64,000 nucleotides of DNA from Neocallimastix sp. 'constans' (lineage: Eukaryota). Made by a program: the position numbers and the translations under genes. Shown piece after piece: positions 12,389 to 59,980 of this stretch. Every line of letters starts with the position of its first letter. The first letter of the stretch is position 1. The notes below the pieces were generated by a model that worked only from the letters and a program-made list of their open reading frames with translations, had not been told where the DNA came from and ran no database searches. The stretch is from positions 682,001 through 746,000 of the forward strand of contig JBODTK010000014.1 in the NCBI GenBank assembly GCA_050613775.1, in the 5' to 3' direction.

Positions 12389-12433
<45 letters not shown>

Positions 12434-12437
<4 letters not shown>

Positions 12438-12900: not shown

Positions 12901-12931
<31 letters not shown>

Positions 12932-14378
12932 ACAATGAAAAGAAGAAAAAATGTAAAAATTATATCAAAAGGAACTCAACGATTAGTATTTATGCCTTAT
13001 CTCATGATCTTCAAGTATTTCCAATTGCTGGCTTTTGTGCTTCTTTTTAAATAAAATGATTTTTGTAAATGGAGAAATTCTAAATGTATTATTAAAGATC
13101 TCATAAACCTTATCCCTTCTAGGCCACGTTATTCTTGGTCGAAAAAATCACAGGTGCTCTTCAAGAAAATAAAGAAAAAGAACATCACTAAATTCAAAGA
13201 TGTTATTGAATCATATTGGTCTGATGTTGGTAAATTCCAAGGAATTAAAGGTATGAATTATGATAACTTCAAATTTATAAATACTAGAAATTTATTCAAG
13301 CTCAGCCTTGAATACCCTCATTTAAGTTTAGGTTTTAACTGCATCTTAAAATTAAGAGCTGGTTACAAAATACAAAATATAATACAACTATTGCAATTAG
13401 AAGTGGTAGAGTTTCTGACGACTGTCCTAAATTCTGCCCTTGTTGTGGAAAAGGTGAACAATCATTTTATCCATTGGATATTTGAATGCTCTATCTTTTC
13501 TTTATGTCGATGTAAATCTTTAGATTTTATCGATGATTTATTCATTATATTTGCCAATAAAGTAAGGAATCTTTCCTTACTTCCTTCTTATTCTAATATT
13601 TTAGAATATGAAAATTTCATAAACAGGTATATTTATACATTCCTTCTTGGGGGAATTTCAGCTTTAGATGAGCTACAATTCGATACTGGGGAACAGAGAC
13701 ATTTAAGTGAACAACTCCTAAAAAGTTCACAGGGGTCTACTGTTCCGTATATTGTGGGGCTTCCGGAATATCTTGCTAATACAATACCAATCATCAGTAG
13801 CTCTCTTGAGTTACTTTTTGAGAGGTTTAGCAAAAACAACATTCATTACCAAGAGTGCCGACGTCGTACCGATATGGCAAAGGAATAAATGCAGTTGGAA
13901 GTCCTGTTAATTCTCATCAATACACATTAACTAACAGCACAGTTCCGAACATAGAACCTATAGTAAGTAATTCAATTTCTGATGTTCTTTCTTGTGGTTC
14001 AAGGGAGAATTTAGTGGATACCACACTATCTATTTTAAAGATGTTACTTCTTTGTTTTATTATGTTAGATTAAACTGGTGATCATGCTACTACTCGTAGT
14101 ATACATCACTCCGAATTTTATTTAACTCTTGAACTTATTTTTATTCTTTAATACATTAAATTTTCTTTGATTAATTAAAATTTGTTATTTCTTATCTTTT
14201 TATCATTTTTTATTTTACTTAATCTTTTATATATATTTTATTTTTTTTTATCTTTTAATTATATAATGTATTTTTTTTATAATTAAATGTAATACATAAA
14301 AATATTTCAATTTATTTAATAAAGCACTGGAAGTGTATTCTCTTCTTAGTCTAAAAAAAAAAAAAAAAAAAAAAAAAA
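12434..14378 (+). mobile_element. Degenerate LINE 3' portion (element B): post-RT region, Cys/His knuckle, FLLGG motif, 3'UTR, poly(A)
   Basis: Fragments ISIYALSHDLQ, KWRNSKC, CPCCG..HWIFEC and FLLGG are homologous to the full-length element. AATAAA precedes TAGTCT-A26 (14353-14378). Interrupted by element A. Confidence 0.85.
12459..12926 (+). mobile_element. 5'-truncated LINE insertion (element A): ORF C-terminus, 3'UTR and poly(A)
   Basis: Closely similar to 36056-36514. A26 tail at 12901-12926. Candidate TSD TCTTAACA(T/A)TG at 12451-12461 and 12927-12937. Confidence 0.85.
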
Positions 14379-15874
14379 TTTACACGTTTCTTTTCAAATA
14401 AACTTATTCCTATGTCAAAGGCGTAAAAATGATAATAAAGAAACTTACCTTGCTTTTCTAGATTTGAAAAAGGCATATGATTCTGTTCCAATAAGGTAAT
14501 ATTTTATATAAATTAGATGCTTTTAGTATTAGAGGTAAATGTTATCAATTTTTAAAAAAAAATCTATATTTGACTACCAAAGCCAGTGTTAAAATTGATG
14601 ATCAATATTTGGAATCTTTTAATATTATGAAAGGAGTTTGACAAGGCTGTCCACTATCACCAATTCTTTTCAATCTATTTATTAATGACATTTTTAATGA
14701 TTTTTCAGAACTTGGAATTCCTTTAGGCAAATCTAGATGTTGTGGTGGACTCTTTGCAGATGATATTGTTCTATGCGCACCGTCAAGAACTAAGTTAAAA
14801 AAAAAAAATGCTTAAGAAGGTAAATGAATGGGCTAAATTTAATATGATGAATTTTGGAATTAACAAGTGTGCAACGATGGTGATTCGACCAGACATACCT
14901 CTTTTTCAATATAAAAAAGATCCTACTGTTTATCTTGCTGGTCAACCAATCCCAATAACTAAATTTTATACCTATTTAGGCATACCATTTGATAAAAGCT
15001 TATCGTTGAACCCTATTATTAAATTACTTAACTCTAAAGTTACTAAAGCTCTCTTTTCTGTTAGTAAATTTTCTTTCAAATTCCAAAATTCCTTTTTCCA
15101 TTTAAGAAGATTATAATTAACTCTTATGTACTTAGTAAAGTCTCTTACTTTGCACCTTTTCTACTTGGTTCAAATAAAGCGAGAACAAATAATACTCAGA
15201 AATTAATTAATAAAGGAATCAAGATGGGTTGCAGGTTTACAAAAAGCCAAATCTTTTATTAATGTATATTCTATTTCAAAAGATTTAAATATTCCTCCAT
15301 TGTCAGCTAAGTGTGCTTTGTCTCAAGTCAAATGTTTTGATAAATGGAAAGATTCAAATTGTATTATTTCCTATTTAATTAATAATATTTCAAAATATAG
15401 AAAATATACATGGACCAAAGAAAGTAGAACTCTTAAAACGTAAACTGGAGAAAAGAGATAATAATGATAATAAAATCAAGAATTTTTATTGGAAAGGGGA
15501 TATGAAAATCAATTCTATTAAAGCTGAATTTTATGATAAAAACAGATTCGAAGAAACATCAAATTTTATAAAACTTTGTTATTAATATCCTGATCTTTCA
15601 TATGATTTCTATTGGCTATTGAGAGCACGAAAGCGGATATAGATTAGATGCTAGAATTGCTAAAGCTGCAAAAATAATAGATCAAATATGTCCTAATTTT
15701 TGTCCCTGTTGTAAAAGTAATAAACAACGGATAAGGCATTGGTTAATTGATTGTCCATTTTTTCAATCATATTCGTAGTAAAGTTAGTGATAAAATTTTA
15801 TTTTTATATAATGCTTTTTAACCGTGACAACCTAACAAATGATATTGTTAATAGTAATTATGATTACAACAACA

Positions 15875-15910
<36 letters not shown>

Positions 15911-16747
15911 GTAATAATAGTAATAGTAATAATAGAAATAGTAATAATAGTAATAGTAATAATAGAAATAGTAATAATAGTAATAGTAATAATAGAAATA
16001 GTAATAATAGTAATAGTAATAATAGAAATAGTAATAATAGTAATAGTAATAATAGAAATAGTAATAATAGTAATAGTAATAATAGAAATAGTAATAATAG
16101 TAATAGTAATATTAGTTTTAGTAATATTAGTAATAGTATTATTAGTAATGTTAGTAATAGTATTGAAAATAATGTGTATGTTGATTCTAATGTGTGTGAA
16201 AAAGTGTTTAATTTCCTTCTTGGAGGTCGAAGTATTAATAACAGTACAAGGGAATGGAAGGATCTATTTAAGTGCCAGATGAAATCAGGTGCTTATTCTG
16301 ATACTCCGTTCTTAGTGGTTACTGCGGCACTTCTCTAATCGATTATACCTATTGCTATTGGCCAGCAATGGTCTTTATTCAATAGGTTCAAATCGAATCG
16401 TACTACTACCACCAAGAGCGTCAATGCTGAAGAAACAGTAAGACAGGCCAGCAGGGCTAGCGCAACCAATGAAGATCATAATTTCGTATCTTAAAATTAT
16501 GATTAACATTGTGAAGTCAAAAAATAATTATTATACTACAGTATAATAATGCCCTTGTGAAGTCTTACAGATATTAATTAAATGAAACTAGAATACATTT
16601 TACCATTATTTTATTTTATTTTGTGTTTTATTTTTGTATATTTTTTTATCTTTTTCGTTTTTTTTTTTTTATTTTATTACATGTATTTTATCAAATATTT
16701 AATTAATAAAGATGAAACAAGTTTGCTGCCGTTAAAAAAAAAAAAAA
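14379..16747 (+). mobile_element. Degenerate LINE (element C): RT core to 3' poly(A)
   Basis: LAFLDLKKAYDSVP, GV*QGCPLSPILFN, GGLFADDIVL, GINKCATM, YLGIPF, CPCC knuckle, FLLGG. AATAAA and A14 tail at 16734-16747. Many frameshifts and stops. Confidence 0.9.
15911..16110 (+). repeat. 30-bp Asn/Ser-coding minisatellite inside the LINE C ORF
   Basis: About 6 copies of AATAGAAATAGTAATAATAGTAATAGTAAT, in frame (NRNSNNSNSN). Confidence 0.9.
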
Positions 16748-17490
16748 TTATTAGAGTTATGGATTTAAATTTCGTAAATTCTTATGTGTTAGTCTCTATA
16801 AATATTACTCATGAAATCGAGAATACCTACTCTTTCAACTGTCTGTGCTATATCTCAATTACGTTGCTTTAGAAAATGGAAAAAAACTCATCATCATGTA
16901 TTATTAATCATCTCACTAATAATATTCCTACGATGTCACATTACTCATGGACTAAAGAATCAAGGACTTTGGATAAGAAATTAAATGGTTAAAAAAACAA
17001 GTGAAATAATAAAAAGTTTTATTGGGAAAGAGAGATGTCTTCAAACTCTCAAAAGCTAAAAAAAAAAAATGCAATTATTTACAAGGAGGAGAATGATTTT
17101 GGATTTATTTCGGAAATCAAAAAATTTAACATTTCAATATCCTAAGTATCAGTTGGGATTCTTTTTGGATTTCTCGAATTAGGTGTGGTTTTAAATTTGA
17201 CATTTAGTATTTTTCATTAAAAGAATAGTAGTCTCATCTCAGAAGATTGCCCTAAATGTTGGCCATGTTGTGGTGTTAGTGTACCTAGCTTTTCTCACTG
17301 GATCTTTGCCTATAAAGAATTAGGGGAACATTACAGAAATAAATTTCTACCTTTTTAGATGATCTCGTTTTTTTTGAAATTCGCAATGATAATTGAACAA
17401 AAAAAAATCCTTGGATGTTTCTTTAGGTTTAGAAAAGGATTATGATATTAATATTTAATATTTTATAATTGAGTGCTCTTCTTGGCAGGA
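16748..17490 (+). mobile_element. Degenerate LINE fragment (element D): post-RT region and knuckle, cut at the LLG motif
   Basis: NNIPTMSHYSWTKESR, RIRCGFKFD, CPKCWPCCG..FSHWIF and ALLGR match the C-terminal part of element F. Confidence 0.85.
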
Positions 17491-20169
17491 GTCCCAATGA
17501 TGAAACCTAAGCTATAGAGTTTCTGAGGGGATCAGCAAATTGTATAATAATAAAATTTTTTAATTATGTTTCAATTTACATACAATCTCAATCTTTTTAT
17601 ATAAATCATAGCTTTAGTTTTTAAAGCAATTATTCAATCAAAAGACTTTTTTACACTATACTACAAACAATATTGTTTTTGTTTTTTTCTCTTATATCTT
17701 TAAAATTTTTCTATACTATATATATATATACATTTATCATTATATATGTTATTTTATATCTCTATATAAATTTTTTACCTTAGATTGTTAATTTTTTTAT
17801 ATCCTTTTACAACATATTAACATATAAAAAAAAATTAAAATTTATTTTACATTATATTTATTAAATAAATAATTTTTCTATTAATATTGTTTTCTTAATA
17901 TATCTTAGGAAACTCAATTCATGAGAAACAATTAACTTTTATATTCAGTAAACTTAAATGTTAATATTTTATATATAATTCTTTGGTATGCAATCCTTAT
18001 ATCAATTTTCATTTGATAGAAATTTAAGTCAATTTTCTTTGGTATGAAATCCTTATATCAATTTTCATTTGATAGAAATTAAGTCAATTTTTTTCTCAAC
18101 AAACTCTAAACACGGATGCTTTTTTTTTGCTCAGTTAATACTACACCTTTCCATCATGGTTTCTACGACTTCGGGAATTATTATAACCTTATTTTTATCC
18201 ATGACCTTAATTCTTGGTCCCCTAGTAAACCAATGGTTCAAGTTATTAGTAAGATCCCTAACTACTGTGAAATTATTCCATACATAAAAAACTTTTTTTT
18301 CTCCAAGGTATAGCTCATACTTCATTGTTAGGGTTAATAAACACAAAAATGATCTCAACTTTTTCGATGTTTTAAATTTCATAGGAGAAAAAATTCCTGA
18401 AACAGCTAAAATTAACTGGTTCTTGTGTAATAAACTTAAACGAAAGAACAAGTCTATAAAAAATCTAATAACATTGATGTTGAACCTAACCCTATGGCAT
18501 AAGATTTTATTTTATCTCTTGCCATCTAAATTCAAAATTTTCTTTCTTTAATCTCTGTGAAAGTTGGAATATTAATGGTTGGAATATTGAAAAGCATGAT
18601 AGTATTTTATACCTCAACTCTATTTTTTTTTTTTAAACCTATATGTATCTGTTTTACATGAAACTGGAAAAAAGTAAAATATCTTCCAAAAGATGTTTTA
18701 TCACCACCATTAATTCCAAATTACAATTCAGTTTTTCTTAGAGCTAATCTTAAAACCCCCCGGTATGAGAGGATTCTTTTTTTGGTGTTTATTCTTCGTT
18801 TTCTTTCTTCCAAGAACCGTTTTCATACAAATATTATCATTTCAGTAAATATTACTTCTTTCTAGAATCAAAAATGTACTAATGGTAATATCTACTTCCT
18901 TCAAAGCAAAATGGAAGGAAGTAAAGACTAGTTACTTTTGATGAACTTTCTCAATGGTTACATTTTCACAATAGAAAAAATGTTCCTGCTGTCCTAGTTG
19001 GTGATTTTAACATGTCATTAAAGAAGGATCAAAACATACATTTCAAAATAATTTTCCTAATCGGTATATTGCTCCCTTATAGGGTAATCAATTTACTTAT
19101 GAAAAAGGTACTAGATCGTCTTGCATTGATCACGTCATCTATAATGAGGCTCTGGCAACTCATATTAATAAGACATCGGTTTGTACTTCATTTTATGGTA
19201 TCTCCGATCATAAACCTGTTTTACTTTCTTGCAACAAAGTTCTTTCCGATGGCTTTATAGGTCCTGCTAAATTTTCTAAATAGTCTACACATATTTGTAA
19301 AAAAAAAAAAAAAAAATTCAGATATTTTATCACATAATTATTTTTTCAATCTTAGTAAATGATTTCGATTCTCATTACAATGCACTTACGGCTGATGAAA
19401 TGGTAGAAAAATTTATCAATACAGCAAATAATATCAGGGAAAGATATTAAGGCTTTCATTCCAACAAATGTAAAAGGCTCGGCTTTTTATTGTCCCTATT
19501 ACATTAAAAAAAACTGTCTCATGAAAAGCATATTACATTTAAAAACATTTAAGCTTTTCTTTAATTGTGAAAATGTTGATAATTACCTTAAACAATTTAA
19601 TAAATATGAAAAAACTTTTGCAAATTGATCAAGAAAACAAAGAGTAAATTTCGTTCTGCTAGATATAAGGCTAATATAGTAAAAATCGGTAATTATTTTT
19701 TTGAATAAAGATTTCAAAAATGGTTGGAGGTGTTTAAAAAAAAAAAAAAATAAATAAATGGCTAAACCATCTTATTCATCCACCTCTCTTACTTGCTTTA
19801 AATATAAATTTGTTCAAGATATTATCTCTCCTACTAAGCAATTAGATAAATGGGCTGAATATTATAAAAATCTAGCTTCTGACCCTTCAGGTCACAGCCT
19901 TAATCGTAACTATTGGAATCATGCTCTACGAAATATTAGTCTTTTTAGATCCTCTGCTTGGAATATCAGCGGTTCCAATTACGATTGATGATATTAAAAA
20001 AAAAATACTATTTCATCAATGAAAAACAACAAAGTACCCGACCCTGATGATTATCCTGATTGAATTCTACAAAGCTCTATTTTGCAATGAAGAATTACTA
20101 GAAACCCATGCTTGCCGCTGGAAAGTGCCTTAAATTGATATTTAATAAAATCTAGAATGGGACCTTTCC

Positions 20170-20200
<31 letters not shown>

Positions 20201-20563
20201 AACTCAGCTTCTATTGTATCTATCCCTAAGAAAGATGACCTGCCAGATTGTAGTCACTATCGAGGTATTTCTCTCATTAATGTTTGGACTGAAGATCATT
20301 TCAAAAAATTATAACTGATAGAAATATCTACCTACGCACTTAACACACAATTTCATTAGACCTGAATAATTTGGTTTTCCCAATCGTGAAGAATGCATTT
20401 AGTTTATTCATTTCCGTTAGAGAAATTTGCCAAAGAAGAAAATTTCAAGGAAAATTCACATATCTAGCCTTTTTAAGATCTTAAAAAAAGCTTATGATTC
20501 AGTTCGTATATTTAACATCCTTACTAAATTGTATCATTAGGGAGTCCGTGGTAAATGTATTCC
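17491..20563 (+). mobile_element. Degenerate LINE 5' half (element E): 5' hairpin, 5'UTR, RRM-like N-terminus, APE, start of RT
   Basis: LIFIHDLNSW and YFIVRVN (homologous to 26703-26984); SWNINGWN, GNIY, LVGDFNM and SCIDH (APE); YRGISLIN and DLKKAYDSV (RT). Ends abruptly at the (TTA)n tract. Confidence 0.9.
17493..17529 (+). ncRNA. Kink-turn (box C/D-type) hairpin at the 5' terminus of LINE E
   Basis: CCC-AAU-GA-UG-AAAC-CUA-AGCUA-UAG-A-GUUU-CU-GA-GGG: C-stem, 3-nt bulge, tandem G.A/A.G, U.U, G-C. Contains AUGAUGA (box C) and CUGA (box D). Confidence 0.7.
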
Positions 20564-21085
<522 letters not shown>

Positions 21086-21799
21086 ATAAATCGTAAAAAA
21101 TCATTATTAATAAAAAAAAAGAATAAAATAAATTTATAAAATTATAGTTTATATATATAATAAAAATAAAATTAAAATTAAAATAAACAATAATTCTTAA
21201 TATAAAAGTTTTACATATTATATATTATATATATATATATATATTTTCATCATTTTATTTTTGTATTAATATTCCATAAAAAGTTTATTTGAATTAGAGA
21301 TATAATATATAATTATGAAATAATCAAATTTTTTTTTTTTTTTTTTTTATTAATATAAATAAATAAATTTTATTGGCTAATAATAAAATGTTATGAATAA
21401 TATGATCAGAAAAGAAAATAGTTCTAGAAAGTTAAATCATTCTAAAAGAATGTAGTACTATTTGGAATCAGATTCAAAAACTTTTCTATTATCCATAATC
21501 ATTGGTTCAGTTTCCTGTACACGTCCAGAAGCATGAACCTTAATAACATGTTCAATACCATTTTCACATAATAATTTAATTACAGTAAAATAAGTATCTA
21601 CTTATTTCTGTACTGCCTACTATCTATTCATTTATTGATAATATAAGCAATGATGAAATTCCTAAGAGTATTATTTAATATCTTTTTTTTTTTTTTTTTT
21701 TTTTTTTTAATAAGATTTTCATGAAAAATATAAACAGCACAAAAAAAGAAAATTCATTATCATTTTCCTCTTAAAAATTTATTACCTTCTACATGTATT

Positions 21800-21836
<37 letters not shown>

Positions 21837-22369
21837 AAAACCAAAGAAATAATTAAATATAATAAAGAAAGAACTAGTAAAAACAAATAAAATTTTTTTT
21901 ATTTTTAATTAAATAAATACTTTTTTTCATTAACATGAATGAAATTAAAATATAAAATTTTAATTATTATAGTAATTATGCATTAATAATTAATCTTATA
22001 TGTAAATAAATAAGTAGTAAGTAAGTAATAAATATTATATAGCAATGTGATTATTTCCATTATATACATTTTATTTTATCAATTTTTTCTAATTTTTAAA
22101 AGCTAAAACTATTTTTATAATTAGTTATAATTATTACATATTTATAATTAAAAAGATTAAAAATTTGAAAAGAATAGCTATAATAGTAGTAACTAGTAAA
22201 AATCTGTAAAGTATAATTAAAATATTAAATAATTTCTCTATCAAAAAAAAAAAAATAATCCTATTTATTACTATAATAAAAAGGATTTTTTAAGTGTTTC
22301 ATTTAAAACTTGTGATTATTAATTTAATATAAAATTTGCCATAACAGCATAATTAAGGTCTGACATCTT

Positions 22370-22759
22370 ACCAGAGATCCTTCATCATACATTTAGAATT
22401 TCTCCATTTAACAAGCCATTTGATTTGAAGTGAAGCATAAACTCAAGCAATAAGAAAAATTTTGGAGATCGCATGATAAGGCATAAGTACTAGAGTTAGT
22501 TAAGTTTCTTTCAATATAATATTTCTTATGAGATTCCTTTTCATTATTTTTAACTATGTCATTTTCTTTAATCCTTGAGGAAGGATCAATACCCCTTACT
22601 AAACTAGTAATAATAAAAAAAATTGAACTTTGTTTGTATTTAGTCATGTTTGAACCTAAAAGTAGAGCAAAATATATAGCTTTGCTAATAATATGTGATT
22701 GAATAATATATATCGCTTAAGGGGTAAAGAAATCAACCTATTGGATAAGAAAACTAGAG

Positions 22760-22762
<3 letters not shown>
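22370..22762 (-). mobile_element. Older host LINE (element G), downstream part
   Basis: FSSF/LSNRLISLPLKR, YFALLLGSN, STYALSCDLQ and KWRNSKC continue directly from the 27718-27960 piece once element F and one TSD copy are removed. Confidence 0.85.
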
Positions 22763-22798
<36 letters not shown>

Positions 22799-22896
22799 CT
22801 AGGAATAAACTTTATTTAATAATATTTTTTTTTTAAAAAAATACATGAAGTTTAAATACATGAATTTTTTTTTTTTTTTATATTAATATTAAAAAA

Positions 22897-25800
22897 CTAC
22901 GTTATGAGATTCGAGGACGAAATGGCCTCTAACTCTTCCCATTCATCGAAGATAACTCCATGTGGATGAAAATTATCATTCGAATCTGTATCAGAATTTC
23001 TTCTTTGCCTTATCGTTACGACGTCGACGCTCTTGACAACGGTAGGTCTAACACTATACAAATCGATCATGGTGTAAAAATCACCAATCACAATAGGCAT
23101 AACGTTAGTAAGGAATTCCGCAAGCCCCACAAAATATGAAATCGGGAAAGAAGACTCGTTCGAAGGTGATTGAAAAATATTATTAATAAATCGCCTTCTT
23201 TCCCCCGGAGCCGATCTTTAAGATTTCAAATACTGCATTTCCGCCAAGAAGGAGACACAGCACGTAAAAATTGATATTATCATCAAAATCTTCCTCTTTA
23301 TCATCAGGAATGTTCAATGATTTCTCATGAACAATTAGAGAAAAATTAATAAAAATTTCATCAACAAAGGGAATGAAATGTTGCCTAAATTCTTCAAATT
23401 TAGGACATAAAAGTATCCAGTGTGTAAAACTAGGTATGCTGTTACTCTCACCACAACAAGGGCAGTATGTTGGGCAATTTTCTGATACTAGATTACTTTT
23501 AACATACGTTTTTACATCAAATTTGAATCCACATTTAATTCGTCCAATCCAAAAAAAATTCAAGAGAAAATTGTGAATATTTAAGTGATAGATGTTGAAT
23601 AAATTTTTTAAAACCAAATTTAAATTTCTTGTATTTTGTAGATCTGATCGCAGGAGTGCTTGAATAATGAATATTTTCCAAGTAAAACTTCCTTATTTCT
23701 CCAGGAAGTTTATTATTGTGCTTGTGTACTGCTAAACTCCGTGCTTTTTTCGTCCATGAATAGTGAGAAAGTGTAGGTATATTTTTGACTAAATGAGAAA
23801 TAATACAAGAAGAATCTTTCCACTTTTTAAAGCATCGAATCATCGCCTTAGCACAAAAACTAGCTATAGGAGGTATAGAAAGTTCCTTAGACATATTGTA
23901 AATTGAAGTATTGGAGGTTTTATTTTTAAACCCAAAACTCCAATACAAACCTCGATTAAAAGCAGTTTGAGCTTTTTCAGTATTCTTTTTATTTGAACCA
24001 AGTAAGGGAGCATAATAAAGAACTGAACTAAGGACAAAAGAAACTAGTATACGAGTTTTAAAGTAGAAAGGAACATTCCTATTGGTTAAAAATCTAAAGA
24101 AAGAGTTAACTGTATAATTAATTTTACTATTCATCTTAGCAATAATAGGTTTTAAATCCAACGATTCATTAAAAGGTATACCAAGATATGTATATTGATT
24201 AGTGCTTGGTATATAGTTCATACCATGTCTAAATGTAGGATTTTCATAATGTCTTGAAGGTATAAAATTCTTTGGTTTAACAACTAGTGTAGCGCATTTA
24301 TTGATTCCAAAGGTCATTTCATTTTTAATACCCCAATCATGAGCAATATTCAAAAGGTTTTTAAGTGAAGATTTTGTAGGAGCTAATAATACAATATCAT
24401 CAGCAAATAATCCACCACAACACTTTTTCTTTTCAGTAATCACACCATAACTTTTACATTTATCAAAAATATCATTGACAAATATATTGAATAAAATAGG
24501 TGAGAGAGGACACCCCTGGCGAACACCACGGTGTATTGGAAATTCTTTTGAAAGTTTACCATTAAAGTTTGCACGAGCTTTCGAGGTAAGGTATAGATTA
24601 GTAATGAATTGAAGGCATTTACCACGAATACCAAGATTATTTAATTTAGTAAGTATATTGTAAATTGGAACTGAATCATAAGCTTTTTTAAGGTCAAGAA
24701 AGGCAAGAAAGGTAAATTTATCCTTAAATTTTCTTCTTTGCCAAATTTCACGAATGGATACAAATAAACTAATACATTCTTCTTTATTTCTAAAACCAAA
24801 CTGTTCTGGTCTAATTATTCCATTAGAAAAAGCATAGTCCGATATTCTTTTAGTGACAATTTTTGATAGAATTTTTAAACCTACATTGATGAGTGAAATA
24901 CCACGATAATTATTACAATCTGAAAGATCCCCTTTTTTAGGAATAGAAACAATAGAAACAGAGTTCCATTCATTAGGAAAGTCACCATCCCAAATTTTAT
25001 TAAAAAGTAATAACAGACACTTTGCACAATCGGAATAAGTAACCTCTTGATTAGAGTCATCCTGAGAAGAAGTTCTACTCTCAGAATTAAAAAATGCTTT
25101 AAAAAATTCTGTAGGTATACCATCAGGATCAGGTGCTTTGTTATTTTTCATTGAAAGAACAGTTGAATGAATTTCTGACATGGAAATAGGATGATTAATA
25201 TCCAATGATTCCTGAGGAGTAGAAGAATTATTAAGTATTCTTTTCCAATAATTTTCATTAAGACTGTGACCAGTTATATCAGAAGCAAGTTCTTCATAGT
25301 GTTCTGCAAAACGATTGAGTTGATCTTCTTGGGATACTAAAACATTACCTTCTTTATCTTTAATGTATACAGGTGATTGGGAAGGAGAGTAAGAAGGTTT
25401 AGAGATTTTCTCAAGTCCAGACCAACCACGCTGGGCATCATTTTTTAAGAAACATTCGCCGATGGAATGAATCAAATTTTTAAATCTAATATTCCTAATA
25501 TTTCTTTTAATACTAATGATATAATCAGAAAGAACTCTATATTCTTTTGAAAGATCACAAAATTCTTGAAGATTAGACAAATCATTACGAAGTTTAAAAT
25601 TTTTAATCCTTTTATAAAATAAATGTTTTTCATGTGATAATTTCTTAATATAAGTAGGACAATGGAACGCTGAACCCTGTAAATTTGTAGGAACTCTTGC
25701 ATGAATGTCATCGCCTATTTTATTTGCTGTGTCAAGAAGTTTTTTAACCATTGTATTAGAGTCTAGATTATCATTATGTTCAAATTCATCCAGTAAACAT

Positions 25801-26984
25801 GTGAATATATTATGAGAGAAGATTGCTTCACGTTTATCCCTAAAAATTCGATTAGACCACTTAATTTGTTTATCCCGAGGCGGAGTAACAAAACCATCAG
25901 GAGATATTTTTTTACAAGAACGAATAAGTGATAAATGGTCAGAGATGTCATTAAAAGAGTAGCATACAGAAGCAATATTCAGATAATTTCTTAATTTATC
26001 GTTCACTACTATAAAATCAATACAAGAATTCTTTCCACCATTAGACCAAGTAAATTGATGACCAACCATATCCATAACAAACCATTGAGGGGAAATTCTA
26101 AGAATAAGATCTTTGAGTTGTTGCTTAGTCATGTTGAAATCACCAACAATAGCCGAAGGGTTATTCTGATGGTTCTTGAGCCAATTAGCAAAATCAGTTT
26201 CTGCTTTTTCTCTAGAGTCTTTGTGTTTTTTGCTAGGAATGTAAATGTTCCCTAAAGAACATCTGACACCCCAAAAAGAGAATATATTTACTGAGAGTAT
26301 ATATCTATATTCAAAATCATCATTAGTGAATTGGCAGGAGGAGTGCACACCTATATAAAGGCCCCTCATACCAGGGATTTTTTTGTCCGCACGTCTCAGT
26401 ACTTTTCTATAATGATTAAGGAATGGATATGAGTTAGAAAAAGAGTTAAGGAATGAACTATTACCGACTTCTTGAAGACAAATACAAATAGGATTAAAGA
26501 TTGAATTAAAATTGGTAAGTCCGTCATGTTTTTCAGAATTCCAACCATTTATGTTCCAGCTAATACAGAGGTTGAAATATTGAGTATTCGAGAAAGGGTT
26601 AGCATACAGGAGGCTTTCAAAGACGGGGATTGAAGGTTCAGAATAATACCTGGTTCTATTATGATTAACACTGCTAAATGTGCGTATCCTTGAAGTAATC
26701 TTCTATTTTATTCTTTTAACAGGTAAGTGCTTAGTAATCAAATAAATAACTTTCAAATAATCCATATAATTATTATAGTTAACTCTTAGGATGAAGTAGT
26801 TTTCCATATTAATATAGTGTTTTTTAACGATTCCATGAACAACTTCATTACAATTTGATATCTTTTTGCTTAAAAATTCCCATAGTCTACTTTCAGTCCA
26901 AGATTCAAGATCATGAATGAAAATTAAAACAAATTTATCATGGTCAGGACCATAATGTCGCAGACCTCTTCGTATAGTTGACAT
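22897..26984 (-). pseudogene. Single polyprotein ORF of element F: RRM-like, APE endonuclease, reverse transcriptase, CCHC knuckle; one nonsense codon and two frameshifts
   Basis: ATG 26984. Reading past TAG 26703-26705 stays in frame through SWNINGWN and CLQEV into the 944-aa ORF (GDFN, DLKKAYDSV, GVRQGCPLSP, FADD, YLG). Frameshifts near 23610 and 23180. CPCCG-x8-HWILLC and LLLGG. Confidence 0.9.
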
Positions 26985-27679
26985 AATAAAATAAAAAACT
27001 TATCTATATTAATAAAAAGTAAATGTAATATAAAAATAAAAAAAATAAAATTAGTAAAAAATTAAAAAATAAAAAAAAAATAAAAATTTATTGCTGTTGT
27101 CTTCTCTTTCGTGTATATTGTTTGCTAAAACTTGTTTGTTTTTCTTTCTTTTTGTGTTGACTAGTTTTTAATTAATGATTTTCAATTATAAATTCCTGTT
27201 TTATGTAAAAATTTCTGTAAAATAATCATATATAATATAAAATTTAAATGTTAATGAAATAATAGTTGTGAAAAACTATAAAAAGATTCCCATCCGTTAA
27301 ATAATGTCTCAAACACAAGCTTTGGAGTGAATCAATCTCCTCCATTTCCATTTTACAATAGCTACATGAGAGTATAAATAATACTATAGAAAAAAACATA
27401 TACAAAAAAAAAAAAATGCTAGAGTAAAAATACAATAGATTCATTACAATGATAATATGTAGAAACTACATGATATTATTAATTATACAACTCCAATGTT
27501 ATTACATATCCAGTTTAAGACATTATAGAACGTCAAGTTCACTTTCTACAGTCTTCCAGTATTCCAGATTTCTCTCTTCGTACTAGAAGCCACTTTAGAA
27601 AGGATAACCATTGATTATCATCAGAATCACAGAAAGCTGTAATTAGTACACCTGATATAGGTTATTCCTTTTCCATCAA

Positions 27680-27717
27680 CCCTCCATGGACCTGGAAAAA
27701 CAGTCCACTTCATTGGG
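27680..27717 (-). ncRNA. Kink-turn (Kt-7-type) hairpin at the 5' terminus of LINE F
   Basis: CCC-AAU-GA-AG-UGGAC-UG-UUUUUC-CA-G-GUCCA-UG-GA-GGG starts immediately after the TSD: C-stem, 3-nt bulge, G.A, A.G, A.G, G.U, 5-bp stem. Confidence 0.7.
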
Positions 27718-27960
27718 GAAAACTAGAGAATCAGTATAAAAATTTCTGAAATTTAGACTCTATAAAAAGCATTAATAGATTCGAGTGACAGATTGTTACT
27801 GAAATGGATACCTAAGTACATATAAGTAGATTTTTTGGGAATGGAATACATCCTAAAATAAAACGTAAGGTCTTATAACCATGATAATGCTCAAAATTTA
27901 AAGACTTAATAACCATGGTATCACATTTATTGATAGTGAAAGACATTTCATTTTTCTTTC
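27718..27960 (-). mobile_element. Older host LINE (element G), upstream part (RT C-terminal region)
   Basis: NEMSFTINKCDTMVIK and YMYLGIHFSNNLSLES are homologous to NEMTFGINKCATLVVK and YTYLGIPFNESLDLKP of element F. Confidence 0.85.
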
Positions 27961-28830
27961 ATTAATGGTAACTCCTTGTGAATTAGCATTACCGTTGGAA
28001 TCTATATCATAATTTCCACCTAAAAGTCTATTACCTTCTACATACATTCCTTTTTTTTTTTTTTTTTACTTAAAATCAAAGAAATAATTAAATACAACAG
28101 CATTTCCTTGTACTAAAATCTCAAGCTCGTTTTAAGGAAATTTTTTAATAAAAACTAATATGATTTTATTTATTTGTTTTAATAATTTTTAATTAAATAA
28201 TAAATAAAGAATTTAAAAAAAAATAAAAAATAAAAATAAAAACAAAAAATAATAATTTATATACACAAATAATAATAAAGAATTTATACCAAAAATTTAT
28301 ATGAATTATTGGATTAATTATATTTTTATTAATATATTTAATAAATTTATTTTAAATTTTACTACAATTTGAATTCTTTATATCTCTAATATTTATGCTA
28401 GTAATATAATAATATTTATATAGCTATTTAAATATGATTTTTTTCTTTACATATGATTTTAAAATTAAAATTTTAGATATAATAAAATTCAAATATATTT
28501 CTTATTTATGACTTATTTCATAAATAATAATAATTAATATTTAAATGATTTATATAATTATTTAATTATAAAATATGTTTTGTAATTAAAATTTTAATTA
28601 ATAATATTATTAATATTTTTTTAAAAAAAATTAATTATAATAATTTTTTAAATATTTAAATATAATAAATTTTTTACAAATATTACTTTTTAATTTTTAG
28701 TAGATTTTTATATATTTTTAATTTAAATTTTAATTTTTTGAATAAATTTTGAATTTCTTATTATATAACTTTTTAATATTATAATAATACATTATGTAAT
28801 TTTAGTAGTTTTGGTGTTTTTTTTTTTTTT

Positions 28831-31800
28831 TTAGTTTTCAGAAGAGCAACTATTATATTTAAATTATATTAATAAAATTATAATGAAGATATTAAAAATA
28901 TATTAGATATTTCGTTTGTTGAACAATTAATATAAAAATAAAATTATTTATTTATTATTACAAAATTTTTGTTAATAAAATAAATTACTTACATAGATTT
29001 GAGTTCTTCTGGAACTTTGTCACATCCATCTTCAATTTTTAATTCGGAAAGATTCTTAAGATTCTTTAAAGAAGAAAGATCTTCAGCATCAATAGAACGA
29101 ACATCAATTTTTAATGATTCAAGTTCACTGAAACCAGAAATGATTTTAATATCTTCATCATCAATGGAAGTGTTTCCATATAAGACTAATGATTTTAAGG
29201 ATTCAACATTCTTGAAGGCATTTAAAGTTGAACTAACACTATTAGTGGTTATTTTCTTTAAATTCTTGAGATTCTTTAATGAAGAATAATCTAAATCGTC
29301 ATCAAAGTCACATTCATTAAATTCAATTTCTTCAAGTCCACTTAAAGAAGATAAAACATCAATTCCTCTTTGACTTAAAGAAATTCTCATTAATTTAATC
29401 TTTTCAAGAGTACCTACATTTTCAAATTCTTCTAATGAACTTTCTTCATATTCAGTATAAGCTTCACTTATAGTTTCAGTAGGAGCTGAACTAGAAGAGC
29501 AGAGAGATTTAAGTTCTTCTGGAACTATATCACATCCATCTTCAATTTTTAATTCGGAAAGATTCTTAAGATTCTTTAAAGAAGAAAGATCTTCAGCATC
29601 AATAGAACGAACATCAATTTTTAATGATTCAAGTTCACTGAAACCAGAAATGATTTCAATATCTTCATCATCAATGGAAGTGTTTCCATATAAGACTAAT
29701 GACTTTAAGGATTCAACATTCTTGAAGGCATTTAAAGTTGAACTAACACTATTAGTGGTTAATTTCTTTAAATTCTTGAGATTCTTTAATGAAGAATAAT
29801 CTAAATCGTCATCAAAGTCACATTCATTGAATTCGATTTCTTCAAGTCCACTTAAAGAAGATAAAACATCAATTCCTCTTTGACTTAAAGAAATTCTCAT
29901 TAATTTAATCTTTTCAAGAGTAGCTACATTTTCAAATTCTTCTAATGAACTTTCTTCATATTCAGCATAAGCTTCACTTATAGTTTCAGTAGGAGCTGAA
30001 CTAGAAGAGCAGAGAGATTTAAGTTCTTCTGGAACTATATCACATCCATCTTCAATTTTTAATTCGGAAAGATTCTTAAGATTCTTTAAAGAAGAAAGAT
30101 CTTCAGCATCAATAGAACGAACATCAATTTTTAATGATTCAAGTTCACTGAAACCAGAAATGATTTCAATATCTTCATCATCAATGGAAGTGTTTCCATA
30201 TAATTCTAATGATCTTAAGGATTCAACATTCTTGAAAGCATTTAAAGTTGAACTAACACTATTAGTGGTTAATTTCCTTAAATTCTTGAGATTCTTTAAT
30301 GAAGAATAATCTAAATCGTCATCAAAGTCACATTCATTAAATTCAATTTCTTCAAGTCCACTTAAAGAAGATAAAACATCAATTCCTCTTTGACTTAAAG
30401 AAATTCTCATTAATTTAATCTTTTCAAGAGTACCTACATTTTCAAATTCTTCTAATGAACTTTCTTCATATTCAGCATAAGCTTCACTTATAGTTTCAGT
30501 AGGAGCTGAACTAGAAGAGCAGAGAGATTTAAGTTCTTCTGGAACTATATCACATCCATCTTCAATTTTTAATTCGGAAAGATTCTTAAGATTCTTTAAA
30601 GAAGAAAGATCTTCAGCATCAATAGAACGAACATCAATTTTTAATGATTCAAGTTCACTGAAACCAGAAATGATTTCAACATCTTCATCATCAATGGAAG
30701 TGTTTCCATATAAGACTAATGATTTTAAGGATTCAACATTCTTGAAAGCATTTAAAGTTGAACTAACACTATTAGTGGTTATTTTCTTTAAATTCTTGAG
30801 ATTCTTTAATGAAGAATAATCTAAATCGTCATCAAAGTCACATTCATTAAATTCAATTTCTTCGAGTCCACTTAAAGAAGATAAAACATCAATTCCTCTT
30901 TGACTTAAAGAAATTCTCATTAATTTAATCTTTTTAAGAGTACCTACATTTTCAAATTCTTCTAATGAACTTTCTTCATATTCAGCATAAGCTTCACTTA
31001 TAGTTTCAGTAGGAGCTGAACTAGAAGAGCAGAGGGATTTAAGTTCTTCTGGAACTATATCACATCCATCTTCAATTTTTAATTCGGAAAGATTCTTAAG
31101 ATTCTTTAAAGAAGAAAGATCTTCAGCATCAATAGAACGAACATCAATTTTTAATGATTCAAGTTCACTGAAACCAGAAATGATTTCAACATCTTCATCA
31201 TCAATGGAAGTGTTTCCATATAAGACTAATGATTTTAAGGATTCAACATTCTTGAAAGCATTTAAAGTTGAACTAACACTATTAGTGGTTATTTTCTTTA
31301 AATTCTTGAGATTCTTTAATGAAGAATAATCTAAATCGTCATCAAAGTCACATTCATTAAATTCAATTTCTTCGAGTCCACTTAAAGAAGATAAAACATC
31401 AATTCCTCTTTGACTTAAAGAAATTCTCATTAATTTAATCTTTTCAAGAGTACCTACATTTTCAAATTCTTCTAATGAACTTTCTTCATATTCAGCATAA
31501 GCTTCACTTATAGTTTCAGTAGGAGCTGAACTAGAAGAGCAGAGGGATTTAAGTTCTTCTGGAACTATATCACATCCATCTTCAATTTTTAATTCGGAAA
31601 GATTCTTAAGATTCTTTAAAGAAGAAAGATCTTCAGCATCAATAGAACGAACATCAATTTTTAATGATTCAAGTTCACTGAAACCAGAAATGATTTCAAT
31701 ATCTTCATCATCAATGGAAGTGTTTCCATATAATTCTAATGATCTTAAGGATTCAACATTCTTGAAAGCATTTAAAGTTGAACTAACACTATTAGTGGTT

Positions 31801-32986
31801 AATTTCCTTAAATTCTTGAGATTCTTTAATGAAGAATAATCTAAATCGTCATCAAAGTCACATTCATTAAATTCAATTTCTTCGAGTCCACTTAAAGAAG
31901 ATAAAACATCAATTCCTCTTTGACTTAAAGAAATTCTCATTAATTTAATCTTTTCAAGAGTACCTACATTTTCAAATTCTTCTAATGAACTTTCTTCATA
32001 TTCAGCATAAGCTTCACTTATAGTTTCAGTAGGAGCTGAACTAGAAGAGCAGAGAGATTTAAGTTCTTCTGGAACTATATCACATCCATCTTCAATTTTT
32101 AATTCGGAAAGATTCTTAAGATTCTTTAAAGAAGAAAGATCTTCAGCATCAATAGAACGAACATCAATTTTTAATGATTCAAGTTCACTGAAACCAGAAA
32201 TGATTTCAATATCTTCATCATCAATGGAAGTGTTTCCATATAAGACTAATGATTTTAAGGATTCAACATTCTTGAAGGCATTTAAAGTTGAACTAACACT
32301 ATTAGTGGTTATTTTCTTTAAATTCTTGAGATTCTTTAATGAAGAATAATCTAAATCGTCATCAAAGTCACATTCATTAAATTCAATTTCTTCGAGTCCA
32401 CTTAAAGAAGATAAAACATCAATTCCTCTTTGACTTAAAGAAATTCTCATTAATTTAATCTTTTCAAGAGTAGTTACATTTTCAAATTCTTCTAATGAAC
32501 TTTCTTCATATTCAGCATAAGCTTCACTTATAGTTTCAGTAGGAGCTGAACTAGAAGAGCAGAGAGATTTAAGTTCTTCTGGAACTATATCACATCCATC
32601 TTCAATTTTTAATTCGGAAAGATTCTTAAGATTCTTTAAAGAAGAAAGATCTTCAGCATCAATAGAACGAACATCAATTTTTAATGATTCAAGTTCACTG
32701 AAACCAGAAATGATTTCAATATCTTCATCATCAATGGAAGTGTTTCCATATAAGACTAATGATTTTAAGGATTTAACATTCTTGAAAGCATTTAAAGTTG
32801 AACCAACACGATTAGTTGTTAATTTCTTTAAATTCTTAAGATTCTTTAATGAAGAATAATCTAAATCGTCATCAAAGTCACATTCAGTAAATTCAATTTC
32901 TTCAAGTCCACTTAAACCAGATAAAACATTAACATATTCTTGATTTAATGAAAGTCTCGTTAAATTGCTGTAAAATTTAAAAGATT

Positions 32987-35628: not shown

Positions 35629-36514
35629 TTGAAATGATAAACACTGTTATCACAGATACAAATAATGTCGAATTAAGTACAGATTCTGATAGTAGTAATG
35701 AAATTTATAATATTAATAATAACAATAGAAATAATATTGTTAATAATAATAAAATTAGTGATCGAGAAAATAGGAATATTAATATTAGTGATAGTGAAAA
35801 TAATAATATCGTTACTAATAATGTAGTGAATAGTTCAATTGGTGAAAATCGTGTTAATTTAAGTAATTATCTGAATAATGAGTGTGTATATATATATGGG
35901 TCGTGGTACGGATTATATAATTTCCTTCTTGGTGGAAGAGATGCAGACATTATTGATTAAAATAAAAAAAAAAAGGAATGGAATTGTTATGTTTAAGAAC
36001 CAAAATCATTTTTGGTAATTATATTCTAAAAACGCCATTCTTGGTGTGATCTACAGCTCTCTTTACAGAAATTTATGCCTAGGACTAGTACTTGACAAGG
36101 GTTACTATTCCCACGGTACAAGTGCAAACTAACCAGGAGCGTCAACGCTGAAAATGCTGTAAGACAAACTAGCAGGGCCAATGCCTCTATAGGAGAAGAC
36201 CATAATTTCTTTCTAGATAGTCTAATCAAACCTTAATCCATATGGATATGAGGTTCGTTTCATATGAACTTTTTTCGGAATTTATTTATACACTTTATTT
36301 CTTGAATTTTACTTTTTTATTTCCCGTTACTCTTTTAAATATTATTATGTTCTAATTAGACAAATAATATTTATTTATTTTATTAATTCTGTTTTTTTTT
36401 TTTTTATTATATTATTATTTTTTATTTAAATTAAAAATATTCAAATAATTAATAAATGAATAAATAAATAAAGATTAAAGTTCGCAATAATTGTGGCTAT
36501 AAAAAAAAAAAAAA
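35629..36514 (+). mobile_element. 5'-truncated LINE (element H), same family as element A
   Basis: Asn-rich linker, NFLLGGR and TRSVNAENAVRQ. 3'UTR ends AAGATTAAAGTTCGCAATAATTGTGGCTAT-A14, as at 12870-12926. Confidence 0.88.
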
Positions 36515-37760
36515 CTAGTCGCTTAGTCTCACCTTAACATGTTGTCCTTGTTGTTATTAGAAAAAAAAGTAATCCTTGATTGGAACCATTGGTTTTCTAA
36601 ACTCTATCTTTTCCGTGAATTTGAATTTCGAATGAAATATTATAGGGATAATTTCTATACTCATCTTGCATCTTTAATAACATATAGTCTATGGAATCAC
36701 TCTAAGTGTTCTGTAGGTAATGTCTATATTCCCATGAAGAAAAACTAATTACAAGTCCAATATGCATTCTCTGAAGTTTTCACATTGACTTCAGAATCAC
36801 ACTAATCATCCATCTATTCTTCCTGGAAAATTTAACATGAGCAACGCTGATTTTCAAGATAAATTAACCAACAGTAACCTTGATAAGTGGTTTATTCTTC
36901 CGACTAATTGTTCACCTATCTCACGGACAAGAGGTAGATATTCATCAGATATTGATCATGCTTTAGTCAACTCAAGTATGCTGGATAAAATATCAAGTGC
37001 TTATTTTATTGACTATCCTTCTGAATCTGATTCATAAACCGCTTGTAGTTTATTGCAAGAAAACTACCATAGATGAATCATTTTTGTTACCAAAAAAATT
37101 TATTAGGTGGGATAGGTATAAATGCCTTGACCTTAGGAATGAAATTTGTGATCATAATAAATTTGAGATTCTTAGTAAAGAATTAGGAAATAAAGAACTT
37201 TCAATAGATTGTGTAATTGAAAAATTCATTAACACTACTAATTCCATTGTTAAGGATTTATCAATTATATCGTCAAAAGAAATCAGAAAAGCGATGTTTA
37301 GAATGTCACGAAAAATTTATTGTCTTCAAAGTATAAAACATATTAAATACAAATAAATTAAGCGTTATGTTTCTACAAATGATTCCGATAAATTTATTAA
37401 AATTGTTGACTCGTATAATAGACTAAGTGAATTAATTCATAAAAAATGTAACGAATTTAGGAGAAAAGAAAAAAAAATATTTACATTGGATTGAAATTGA
37501 ATGTTTATTAGTTCTTAAAAATGATAGTAGGAAAACATGGAAATGGGTAAAAAAAAAAAAATGCAAAAAATATATAATCAATCTTTCACGGTCTCTCATC
37601 CTATTAAAAACAATAATAATAAATTAGTTTCTTCTACAAATGAAAAGATTAAAAGTTTAGCATTCTCATTATATATTCTTAGGGTCAGATTCTTCAGGTC
37701 ATAGTTTTTCTAAAGATTTCTGGAAAGATTCTGATGCATTAAGGAATTTGGGGAGTGTAT
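36515..37760 (+). mobile_element. Degenerate LINE fragments: short knuckle piece followed by APE C-terminus and linker
   Basis: TCCPCC..WNHWF, then CSVGNVYIP, SDIDHALVN, SDS/HKPL, IRWDR, HNKFEIL and DSSGHSFSKDFWK, homologous to elements E and F. Confidence 0.8.

Positions 37761-49423: not shown

Positions 49424-59980
<10,557 letters not shown>

What the first reader, a model, noticed from the sequence alone, without database searches (positions are those of the whole stretch)
27680..27717. Kink-turn RNA hairpin forms the exact 5' end of a full-length LINE
Seen: the first bases inside the TSD of element F read CCC AAU GA AG UGGAC UG UUUUUC CA G GUCCA UG GA GGG. Established: a canonical stem, a 3-nt bulge and tandem G.A/A.G pairs define a k-turn (here with the Kt-7-like A.G third pair), the binding site of L7Ae-family proteins such as Snu13/15.5K. 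Inference: this LINE lineage caps its RNA with a protein-binding k-turn, which could protect the 5' end, route the RNA through snoRNP/nucleolar pathways, control translation or help 5' junction formation. I know of HDV-like ribozymes at LINE 5' ends but not of k-turns, though I could not search for prior reports.
Basis: partly seen in the sequence, partly recalled or inferred. Interest (0 to 1): 0.92.

Follow-up and report, generated by a model that had tools for sequence, protein, structure and literature searches.

The report
Kink-turn caps on fungal LINE RNAs
This jumping gene, likely from an anaerobic gut fungus, starts exactly at a kink-turn-type RNA hairpin that recurs in five other sequence versions at or near the start of related elements, and the hairpin likely binds a host small-nucleolar-RNA protein that would guard and set the start of the element's RNA.

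Summary
Confirmed and extended. A full-length APE-RT LINE (minus strand, 27717 to 22763, 14-bp TSD, poly(A)) begins at the first base of a standard k-turn hairpin. A second, diverged LINE in the window has an exact box C/box D k-turn (17493-17529) at the same place. A descriptor without sequence bias gave 16 hits in 494,014 bases (window and 49 loci); 9 lie in LINE 5' UTRs, forming six families with unrelated stems, two with compensatory C-stem changes. The Kt-7-like third pair is specific to F; most families look box C/D- or U4-like (predicted protein-dependent). Other families start instead with a kissing-loop module; modules stack and swap between clades. Best reading (0.5): a host Snu13-type protein binds the hairpin and stops 5'-to-3' trimming of uncapped read-through RNA, as in snoRNAs and SPA lncRNAs, replacing the ribozymes other LINEs use. 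The 5' end lies 4-5 nt before the box-C position in 4 of 5 families. Binding, cap status and start site are untested; only F has a TSD-proven end. Five literature searches found no k-turn at a LINE 5' end.

The parts
27680..27717 (-). 5'-terminal k-turn hairpin of LINE F (3-bp C-stem, AAU bulge, G.A/A.G, 3b.3n A.G, 4b.4n G.U)
27718..27731 (.). target-site duplication, 5' copy (14 bp)
22749..22762 (.). target-site duplication, 3' copy
22763..27717 (-). full-length LINE F (4955 bp); 97% identical to L001 and L045 over the body, 88% over the first 318 nt
27668..27675 (-). strand that could pair 8 bp with the k-turn hairpin's apical loop (possible pseudoknot; weak support)
   Evidence: 75 of 1000 shuffles as good
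27576..27668 (-). kissing-loop module: stem with internal strand at 27649-27644 complementary (6 bp) to the 6-nt loop at 27585-27580; the same architecture is 5'-terminal in other families
27320..27520 (-). UGUA-rich UTR segment shared with other families (81% to L004 over 109 nt); borders approximate
26985..27717 (-). 5' UTR, 733 nt, 15 upstream AUGs, none in the last 244 nt
22897..26984 (-). single ORF in intact relatives (about 1350-1400 aa): N-terminal ferredoxin/RRM-like domain, APE endonuclease (PF03372), reverse transcriptase (PF00078), C-terminal CxxC..H..C motif; here broken by a stop at 26705-26703 and a frameshift near 23600
22763..22795 (-). poly(A) tail
17493..17529 (+). [quoted passage not shown]
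17493..20565 (+). second LINE (APE/RT about 29-33% identical to F's in the long tblastn segments), 3' part lost at a (TAT)n tract, so no TSD test is possible

Best explanation
The hairpin is a conserved k-turn pattern at the first bases of the LINE, and it likely binds the host L7Ae-family protein Snu13 (15.5K), forming a small protein cap that would stop 5'-to-3' exonucleases and so both protect and set the 5' end of a likely uncapped, read-through LINE RNA. Shown: the pattern, its place at the TSD-defined end of F, its recurrence in six families with changed stems, the alternative kissing-loop module in the same place, and stacking and swapping of these modules. From established knowledge: k-turns with these pairs are L7Ae-family sites, and box C/D RNPs set 5' ends by blocking Rat1/Xrn1. 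Inferred: the LINE is transcribed from upstream host or LINE promoters, an upstream cut or decapping opens the RNA, Rat1/Xrn1 trims to the bound hairpin, and the element's RT copies the RNA to that base, which is why full-length copies start at the C-run. The most 5' module would win, so internal modules can persist or decay.
For: (1) F starts at the hairpin's first base; in DNA run X1 depth of the family falls to 0 beyond 27728 and 6 contigs leave at 27719 into unlike flanks (agreement 0.58), and one contig joins a 126-nt 5' unit at exactly 27717. (2) 9 of 16 descriptor hits in 494,014 bases are sense-strand LINE 5'-UTR hairpins; features the descriptor did not ask for are shared: L1 purine, L2 A and 4b G in 9 of 9, L3 U in 7 of 9. 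C-stem changes are compensatory in L022 and L029; NC stems differ freely and keep pairing, with G.U pairs; the cDNA strand carries no hit in 6 of 6. (3) 4b.4n G-C in 5 of 6 families and 3b.3n U.U or A-U in 3 of 6 predict poor folding without protein (PMC5689011 discussion; PMC5061560 passages). (4) The end lies 4-5 nt before the box-C position in F, the second window LINE, unit B and L027, the distance at which mature C/D snoRNA 5' ends are trimmed (PMC4053766 passages); SPA lncRNAs use a 5' snoRNP against XRN2 on a polyadenylated RNA (PMC10557570 section 13). (5) The two copies whose L3 is A instead of U are the internal ones that have gained a new upstream k-turn unit (L001, L045): one event, but as expected if only the outer one is selected. 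(6) Two families (second window LINE, L027) have only the 34-37-nt hairpin before AT-rich sequence, too little for a ribozyme. (7) UTRs of 595-915 nt hold 2-18 upstream AUGs (F 15), unlike a capped, scanned mRNA. (8) For R2, a stable 5' fold is proposed as a cap substitute against exonucleases (PMC11331408 passages). (9) The element's own N-terminal domain is predicted ferredoxin/RRM-like, so an L7Ae-fold partner would have to come from the host.
Against: No binding, cap, start-site or trimming data: all four runs laid are contigs, which cannot show RNA ends or strand. Only F has a TSD; none was found in 9 of 9 metagenome loci tested, so the other ends are inferred from homology breakpoints and C-runs. 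The 4-5-nt spacing partly follows from any 3-4-bp C-stem, and L022 breaks it (11 nt if its C-run belongs to the element); in L029 the k-turn follows another module and the contig lacks the true end. Exact box C occurs in 1 of 6 and exact box D in 3 of 6 families, so a full snoRNP is unlikely, and whether Snu13 alone blocks Xrn1 is not known to me. F's A.G third pair favours protein-free folding. 8 of 19 loci with over 550 nt upstream begin without a k-turn. Every end starts with a C-run in both module classes, which this model does not explain. Upstream AUG counts are near chance, not enriched.
Confidence: 0.5

Rival explanations
1. The RNA is an ordinary capped Pol II transcript from an internal promoter; the k-turn next to the cap binds Snu13 or eL30 to block scanning or to hold the RNA in the nucleus or nucleolus, separating template RNA from mRNA.
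For: 5' modules swap between clades as promoters do in mammalian L1 (recalled): L004, L008 and L039 share a module at 84-94% identity though their ORFs fall in different clades. L7Ae-bound k-turns in 5' leaders regulate translation (PMC6298567, search listing only). An AUG sits in the bulge itself.
Against: All inferred ends begin with C-runs rather than a purine initiator (initiator rule recalled); two families have no conserved sequence besides the hairpin; conservation is by pairing, not by DNA sequence.
Confidence: 0.2
2. The k-turn is architectural, as in the SAM-I riboswitch: it bends the first hairpin so that its loop pairs with the strand just downstream, making a protein-free 5' pseudoknot equivalent to the kissing-loop module, an xrRNA-like block or a site for the LINE's own RRM-like domain.
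For: Loop-to-downstream pairing of 6-8 bp in F, B, L022 and L029 (37-115 of 1000 shuffles as good; 12 bp and 12 of 1000 in L001's F-like unit); the alternative module is a pseudoknot with 5-6 bp in 10 of 10 instances; F's A.G third pair allows ion-induced folding.
Against: No nearby partner in 2 of 6 families; cross-family permutation 53 of 720, not significant; most families have pairs that impair protein-free folding.
Confidence: 0.17
3. The hairpin acts at reverse transcription: it lets the RT finish, jump or form the 5' junction, and the C-run anneals or pairs during second-strand priming.
For: Universal C-run; stacked units each starting at a C-run (L001, L045; X1 joint at 27717) look like template jumps; copies truncated inside the hairpin exist (L013, L016; X3 ends at 27684, 27692, 27707).
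Against: Does not need G.A pairs, a 3-nt bulge or L3 = U; the pattern is absent on the cDNA strand; stacks also arise by nested insertion into a UTR.
Confidence: 0.07
4. The 5' end is made by self-cleavage: the kissing-loop module is an undescribed ribozyme and the k-turn is an accessory.
For: HDV-like and twister ribozymes make LINE 5' ends (PMC11331408 passages; PMC8501958 abstract); the kissing-loop module is 5'-terminal in 8 loci.
Against: No Rfam ribozyme hit at E up to 10 in 1001 bases around F or E up to 5 in 12 loci; my HDV-like descriptor hit 4 of 15 leaders only with scattered, non-terminal fits and the twister loop motif 0 of 15; in F an intact kissing-loop module lies inside the end; k-turn-only families have nothing else.
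Confidence: 0.04
5. The pattern is chance in a purine-rich leader.
For: Folding z-score -0.31; descriptor tuned after first hits.
Against: 4-21 of 5000 shuffles per family; 9 of 16 hits fall in LINE leaders; unrequested features shared.
Confidence: 0.02

Closest known systems
Self-cleaving ribozymes at non-LTR retrotransposon 5' ends (HDV-like in R2 and L1Tc; twister variants in Perere-3)
   Same: A compact structured RNA occupies the extreme 5' end next to the TSD; proposed to stand in for a cap and resist exonucleases (PMC11331408 passages; PMC8501958 abstract).
   Different: No catalytic core found; the motif is a protein-binding type of fold, 34-39 nt, and interchangeable with a second module.
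SPA lncRNAs (5' snoRNA-capped, polyadenylated)
   Same: Long polyadenylated RNA whose 5' end would be held by a C/D-type RNP against XRN2 (PMC10557570 section 13).
   Different: SPAs carry a whole snoRNA; here only a minimal k-turn hairpin without guide or C'/D', on an autonomous retrotransposon.
Box C/D snoRNA terminal k-turn and U4 snRNA 5' stem-loop (Snu13/15.5K sites)
   Same: 3-nt bulge RAU, tandem G.A/A.G, C-G at -1b.-1n in 5 of 6 families, 4b.4n G-C in 5 of 6; 5' end 4-5 nt before the box-C position in 4 of 5 terminal families.
   Different: Exact box C in 1 of 6 and box D in 3 of 6 families; boxes only 34-39 nt apart; no Rfam snoRNA or U4 match; followed by 4.9 kb of LINE.
Viral exoribonuclease-resistant RNAs (xrRNA)
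   Same: The alternative kissing-loop module is a pseudoknot at a 5' boundary.
   Different: No Rfam match; ring topology and Xrn1 resistance untested; the review read (PMC8374639, abstract and outline) treats xrRNAs as viral.
APE-RT LINEs of the L1/RTE type
   Same: APE + RT, C-terminal Cys/His motif, poly(A), variable TSD, 5' truncations; nearest solved structure is human L1 ORF2p (E 5e-33).
   Different: Single ORF with a fused N-terminal RRM-like domain; clade not determined here.

Membership tests
Standard k-turn | Watson-Crick C helix, 3-nt bulge, then G.A and A.G at 1b.1n and 2b.2n | tested here: met
   (9 hairpins; G.A/A.G required by the descriptor); definition PMC5061560
Standard k-turn | Pairing conserved while sequence changes | tested here: met
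   C-stem CCC/GGG, UCC/GGA, CCU/AGG; NC positions 4-5 paired in 9 of 9, one mismatch or bulge at 6 or 7 in L029 and L027. Counted by hand-anchored register, not R-scape; families are few and related
Standard k-turn | Kinked fold and L7Ae-family protein binding | not testable with these tools
   needs FRET, EMSA or structure
Box C/D snoRNA | [quoted passage not shown] | tested here: not met
   F has neither exactly; both exact only at 17493-17529; box D alone in L027 and L029
Box C/D snoRNA | Guide region and C'/D' between the boxes; Rfam family | tested here: not met
   whole hairpins are 34-39 nt; best Rfam E 0.71 near F and 2.6 in 12 loci, far below gathering and not on the hairpin
SPA lncRNA | Complete snoRNA at the 5' end | tested here: not met
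SPA lncRNA | Poly(A) 3' end | tested here: met
   genomic poly(A) at 22763-22795
SPA lncRNA | Uncapped 5' end protected from XRN2/Rat1 by the RNP | not testable with these tools
   contigs cannot show RNA ends
HDV-like, twister or hammerhead ribozyme at a LINE 5' end | Family fold and catalytic core | tested here: inconclusive
   no Rfam hit; HDV-like descriptor 0 fits in F, scattered fits in 4 of 15 leaders; twister loop motif 0 of 15; hammerhead words in 3 of 15 without the core geometry on inspection. Divergent variants could be missed
xrRNA (for the kissing-loop module) | Ring-like pseudoknot that blocks Xrn1 without protein | not testable with these tools
   only the 5-6-bp loop pairing was tested
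APE-type LINE | APE + RT, poly(A), TSD | tested here: met
L1 clade versus RTE or other clades | RT phylogeny with reference elements | not tested
   tree holds only this lineage; PDB holds only L1 and R2 for comparison
L7Ae fold (element-encoded binder) | L7Ae alpha-beta-alpha sandwich in the N-terminal domain | tested here: inconclusive
   model strand/helix order is beta-alpha-beta-beta-alpha-beta (pLDDT about 85 for residues 20-90); top 50 matches are ferredoxin-like, several RRMs, best Z 8.0 (rmsd 6.9, 90 aligned)

The most novel reading that the evidence does not exclude
A whole LINE lineage of anaerobic gut fungi has given up both promoter-made caps and ribozymes and instead wears interchangeable RNA caps: a minimal box C/D-like k-turn that borrows host Snu13, or a kissing-loop pseudoknot that is a cellular xrRNA; 5' ends are cut to size by host exonucleases, and the caps are captured, stacked and swapped between LINE clades as mobile modules.
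Probability: 0.35. Interest if true: 0.93.

Novelty: new variant of a known kind. Interest (0 to 1): 0.82.

Why it matters
How non-LTR retrotransposons make and keep a complete 5' end is a standing question with two known answers: an internal promoter, or a self-cleaving ribozyme. A conserved, non-catalytic k-turn at the exact end points to a third: borrowing the snoRNP assembly protein as a cap. It is directly testable with 35-nt RNAs and recombinant Snu13 and Xrn1. If true it gives a natural minimal 5' protection module for RNA templates in retrotransposon-based gene insertion, where 5' fold stability is reported to limit yield (PMC11331408 passages), and the sister kissing-loop module would be a candidate cellular xrRNA.

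Tried and rejected
No whole genome is held for this window, so copies in the same genome were seen only through contigs of four runs over 27425-27985 (141 loose ends and 3468 pieces not shown). Thermodynamic folding does not single out the hairpin. Rfam gave nothing above noise. Scans of viral contigs found no relatives; prokaryote genomes gave 1 useful contaminant contig and 4 without 5' ends or unrelated. MAFFT misaligned the hairpins by one column, so no covariance model was built and pairs were counted from the G.A anchors in a script. TSD searches in metagenome loci gave no credible duplication (31 loci; 9 loci); collapsed repeat assemblies may join flanks of different copies, and L012's flank looks like adapter sequence. 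Twister, HDV-like, hammerhead and pistol readings were tried by descriptor or by eye and dropped (motifs recalled). The idea that every k-turn loop docks downstream reached only 53 of 720 in a permutation test. In one search the L037 row was mis-indexed; one search corrects it (5 bp, 465 of 2000 shuffles). Per-instance shuffle values for the kissing loop are modest (37-564 of 2000), many loops share a palindromic core, and the 2 of 720 permutation result uses sites chosen after inspection. No L7Ae-fold match appeared among the 50 rows listed for the N-terminal domain. RNA-library contigs in X19 and X8 hold the leader but may be DNA and show no start. Earlier scan notes held nothing on this 5' end. 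Literature searches for a k-turn at a retrotransposon 5' end (listings read, plus passages of PMC10948791 and PMC5579392) found none; the library lacks most subscription papers and Repbase, and no supplements were read.

Full report
Observation. The quoted 38-mer lies on the minus strand at 27717-27680. A 14-bp word at 27718-27731 recurs at 22749-22762 directly behind a poly(A) run and nowhere else in the window, so the element spans 27717-22763 and its first base is the first C of the hairpin (1-nt ambiguity, since the TSD ends in C). It encodes an APE endonuclease and a reverse transcriptase. Intact relatives have one ORF of about 1350-1400 aa; F has a stop at codon 94 and a frameshift near the end. 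Two close proteins carry a JGI Orpsp1 label, which I recall as an Orpinomyces genome; with the very low GC this makes an anaerobic gut fungus the likely host. No genome is held.

Is it more than chance? Folding energy says nothing (z -0.31). A k-turn descriptor run over the window found, unprompted, a second hairpin at 17493-17529 with exact box C and box D, 623 nt upstream of the ORF of a second, much diverged LINE whose leader does not align with F's. I then fetched related loci: 44 from metagenomes and 5 from prokaryote assemblies. A descriptor with no preference for particular bases in the stems (written after the first hits were seen) gave 16 hits in 494,014 bases of window and 49 loci, both strands; 9 are sense-strand hairpins in LINE leaders and 7 are elsewhere. 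The nine fall into six families: F with the inner units of L001 and L045, the second window LINE, unit B of L001 and L045, L022, L027 and L029. Dinucleotide shuffles of each family's first 50 nt give the pattern in 4-21 of 5000, and the reverse strand carries it in 0 of 6.

Anatomy. Beyond what the descriptor demanded, all nine share a purine at L1, A at L2 and G at 4b; L3 is U in 7 of 9. The C-stem is CCC/GGG in 7, UCC/GGA in L022 and CCU/AGG in L029. The third pair is A.G (F), U.U, U.G (two families) or A-U (two families); 4b.4n is G-C in five families and G.U in F. This meets the sequence definition of a standard k-turn (PMC5061560, passages). It is not a snoRNA: the boxes are exact in 1 and 3 of 6 families, there is no guide, and Rfam gives nothing.

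Position. Only F has a TSD; 9 of 9 metagenome loci tested show none, so their ends are inferred from breakpoints of homology at the C-run (unit B in L001 versus L045; F versus L001/L045; L004/L008/L039; L010/L012) or from a C-run abutting unrelated sequence. In run X1 the summed depth falls from 15,473 (27691-27709) to 2,457 and to 0 beyond 27728, six contigs leave at 27719 into unlike sequence, and one contig repeats the first 126 nt joined at 27717; in RNA library X19 one contig matches 27537-27718 without a difference; X3 and X8 hold copies ending inside the hairpin. Contigs cannot show a transcription start.

A second module. Of 19 loci with over 550 nt upstream of the ORF (of 31 whose ORF start I placed), 5 hold a whole k-turn, 2 start in its 3' half, 8 start with another structure and 4 are truncated or too short. 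That structure is a C-run stem whose inner strand is complementary to the 6-nt loop of the next hairpin: 5-6 bp in 10 of 10 instances, with four different sequence pairs. Single-instance shuffle support is modest (37-564 of 2000) and the 2 of 720 permutation result is post hoc. F carries this module just inside its k-turn; L029 has its loop hairpin upstream of the k-turn; L001 stacks kissing-loop, k-turn and k-turn units; L045 stacks two k-turn units behind a different flank. On the endonuclease tree (39 rows, shorter fragments left out) both types occur in both main clades, and L004, L008 and L039 share one module at 84-94% identity across clades. The modules are therefore self-contained and exchangeable. 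Whether the k-turn's own loop docks downstream is suggestive in four families but not significant overall (53 of 720).

Mechanism. I favour a protein cap. Snu13/15.5K and its L7Ae relatives are the archetypal k-turn binders; core proteins stop Rat1/Xrn1 trimming of snoRNAs (PMC10557570 passages), leaving ends 4-5 nt before box C (PMC4053766 passages), which is the spacing in F, the second window LINE, unit B and L027 but not L022; SPA lncRNAs apply this to long polyadenylated RNAs. Such a block explains why stacked units travel together (the outer one would set the end, whereas active ribozymes would cut them apart), why the inner F-like copies lost the L3 U, and why two families need only a 34-37-nt hairpin. 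Leaders with up to 18 upstream AUGs fit an RNA that is not a scanned, capped mRNA, though the counts are near chance. The element's N-terminal domain is predicted ferredoxin/RRM-like, so an L7Ae-type binder would be the host's. Every step from binding onward is inferred. I put 0.9 on the k-turn being a selected RNA motif and 0.5 on this function; rivals are a capped transcript under translational or localisation control (0.2), a protein-free or RRM-bound pseudoknot (0.17), a role at reverse transcription (0.07), an unknown ribozyme (0.04) and chance (0.02). The universal 5' C-run remains unexplained.

Comparison and novelty. Structured 5' ends of LINEs are known as HDV-like and twister ribozymes (PMC11331408 passages; PMC8501958 abstract). 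Five full-text searches (k-turn with non-LTR retrotransposon; kink-turn with retrotransposon; snoRNA, Snu13, 15.5K with non-LTR retrotransposon; k-turn or L7Ae with retroelement terms; xrRNA with retrotransposon) listed no k-turn at a LINE 5' end; I read listings, and passages of PMC10948791 and PMC5579392, which concern repeat-derived small RNAs and Alu/SRP G.A pairs. The library is open-access only and no supplements were read. The parts are known, the combination appears not to be: a new variant of the structured LINE 5' end, and close to a new kind if the trimming model holds. Interest 0.82.

Noticed in passing
window 27576-27668 (-); L002 47-135, L004 170-236, L008 152-219, L010 107-173, L011 152-212, L012, L037 1-100, L039 359-427, L001 49-140: Kissing-loop pseudoknot module at or near LINE 5' ends, no Rfam match; candidate xrRNA-like block or undescribed ribozyme and worth its own study.
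   Followed up: partly
L001 49-429, L045 80-307; run X1 joint 27717 to 27592: 5' modules stack in tandem, each beginning at a C-run, and are swapped between LINE clades.
   Followed up: partly
window about 27320-27520 (-); L002, L004, L022, L027, L029, L037, L039: UGUA-rich UTR segment (7-15 copies of the tetramer versus 1-3 in other families) with recurrent AUG-stop words and a possible GAAUC/GAUUC pairing; the same tetramer recurs in 3' UTRs; possible protein-binding or translation element.
   Followed up: partly
window 26706-26984 (-): N-terminal domain of the single ORF folds as a ferredoxin/RRM-like domain, no Pfam hit; an ORF1-like RNA-binding domain fused to APE-RT.
   Followed up: partly
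L045 about 140-200 and L001 about 260-320: Unit B holds a three-way junction ending in GAAA plus a stem that loosely recalls a decayed type III hammerhead; core does not match.
   Followed up: no
window 12400-20565 (+) and 36050-37700 (+): Chains of truncated LINE copies, several starting right behind another copy's poly(A) tail; nested insertion looks common.
   Followed up: no
window 20565-21085: About 520-bp pure (TAT)n tract where the second LINE breaks off.
   Followed up: no
window 28989-32450 (-): Host gene with about 7-8 near-identical 510-bp repeats encoding leucine-rich repeats (PF23598).
   Followed up: partly
window 8711-10948 and 53866-55833 (+): C-rich, GC-elevated low-complexity ORFs without a Pfam family above cut-off, possibly mucin-like surface proteins.
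   Followed up: no
window 21758-21862 and 28005-28097: Two 78%-identical copies of a short exon-like segment on either side of LINE F.
   Followed up: no
L045, L047, L048: Fungal-type LINE contigs sit inside bacterial and archaeal MAGs in GTDB, most likely binning contamination.
   Followed up: no
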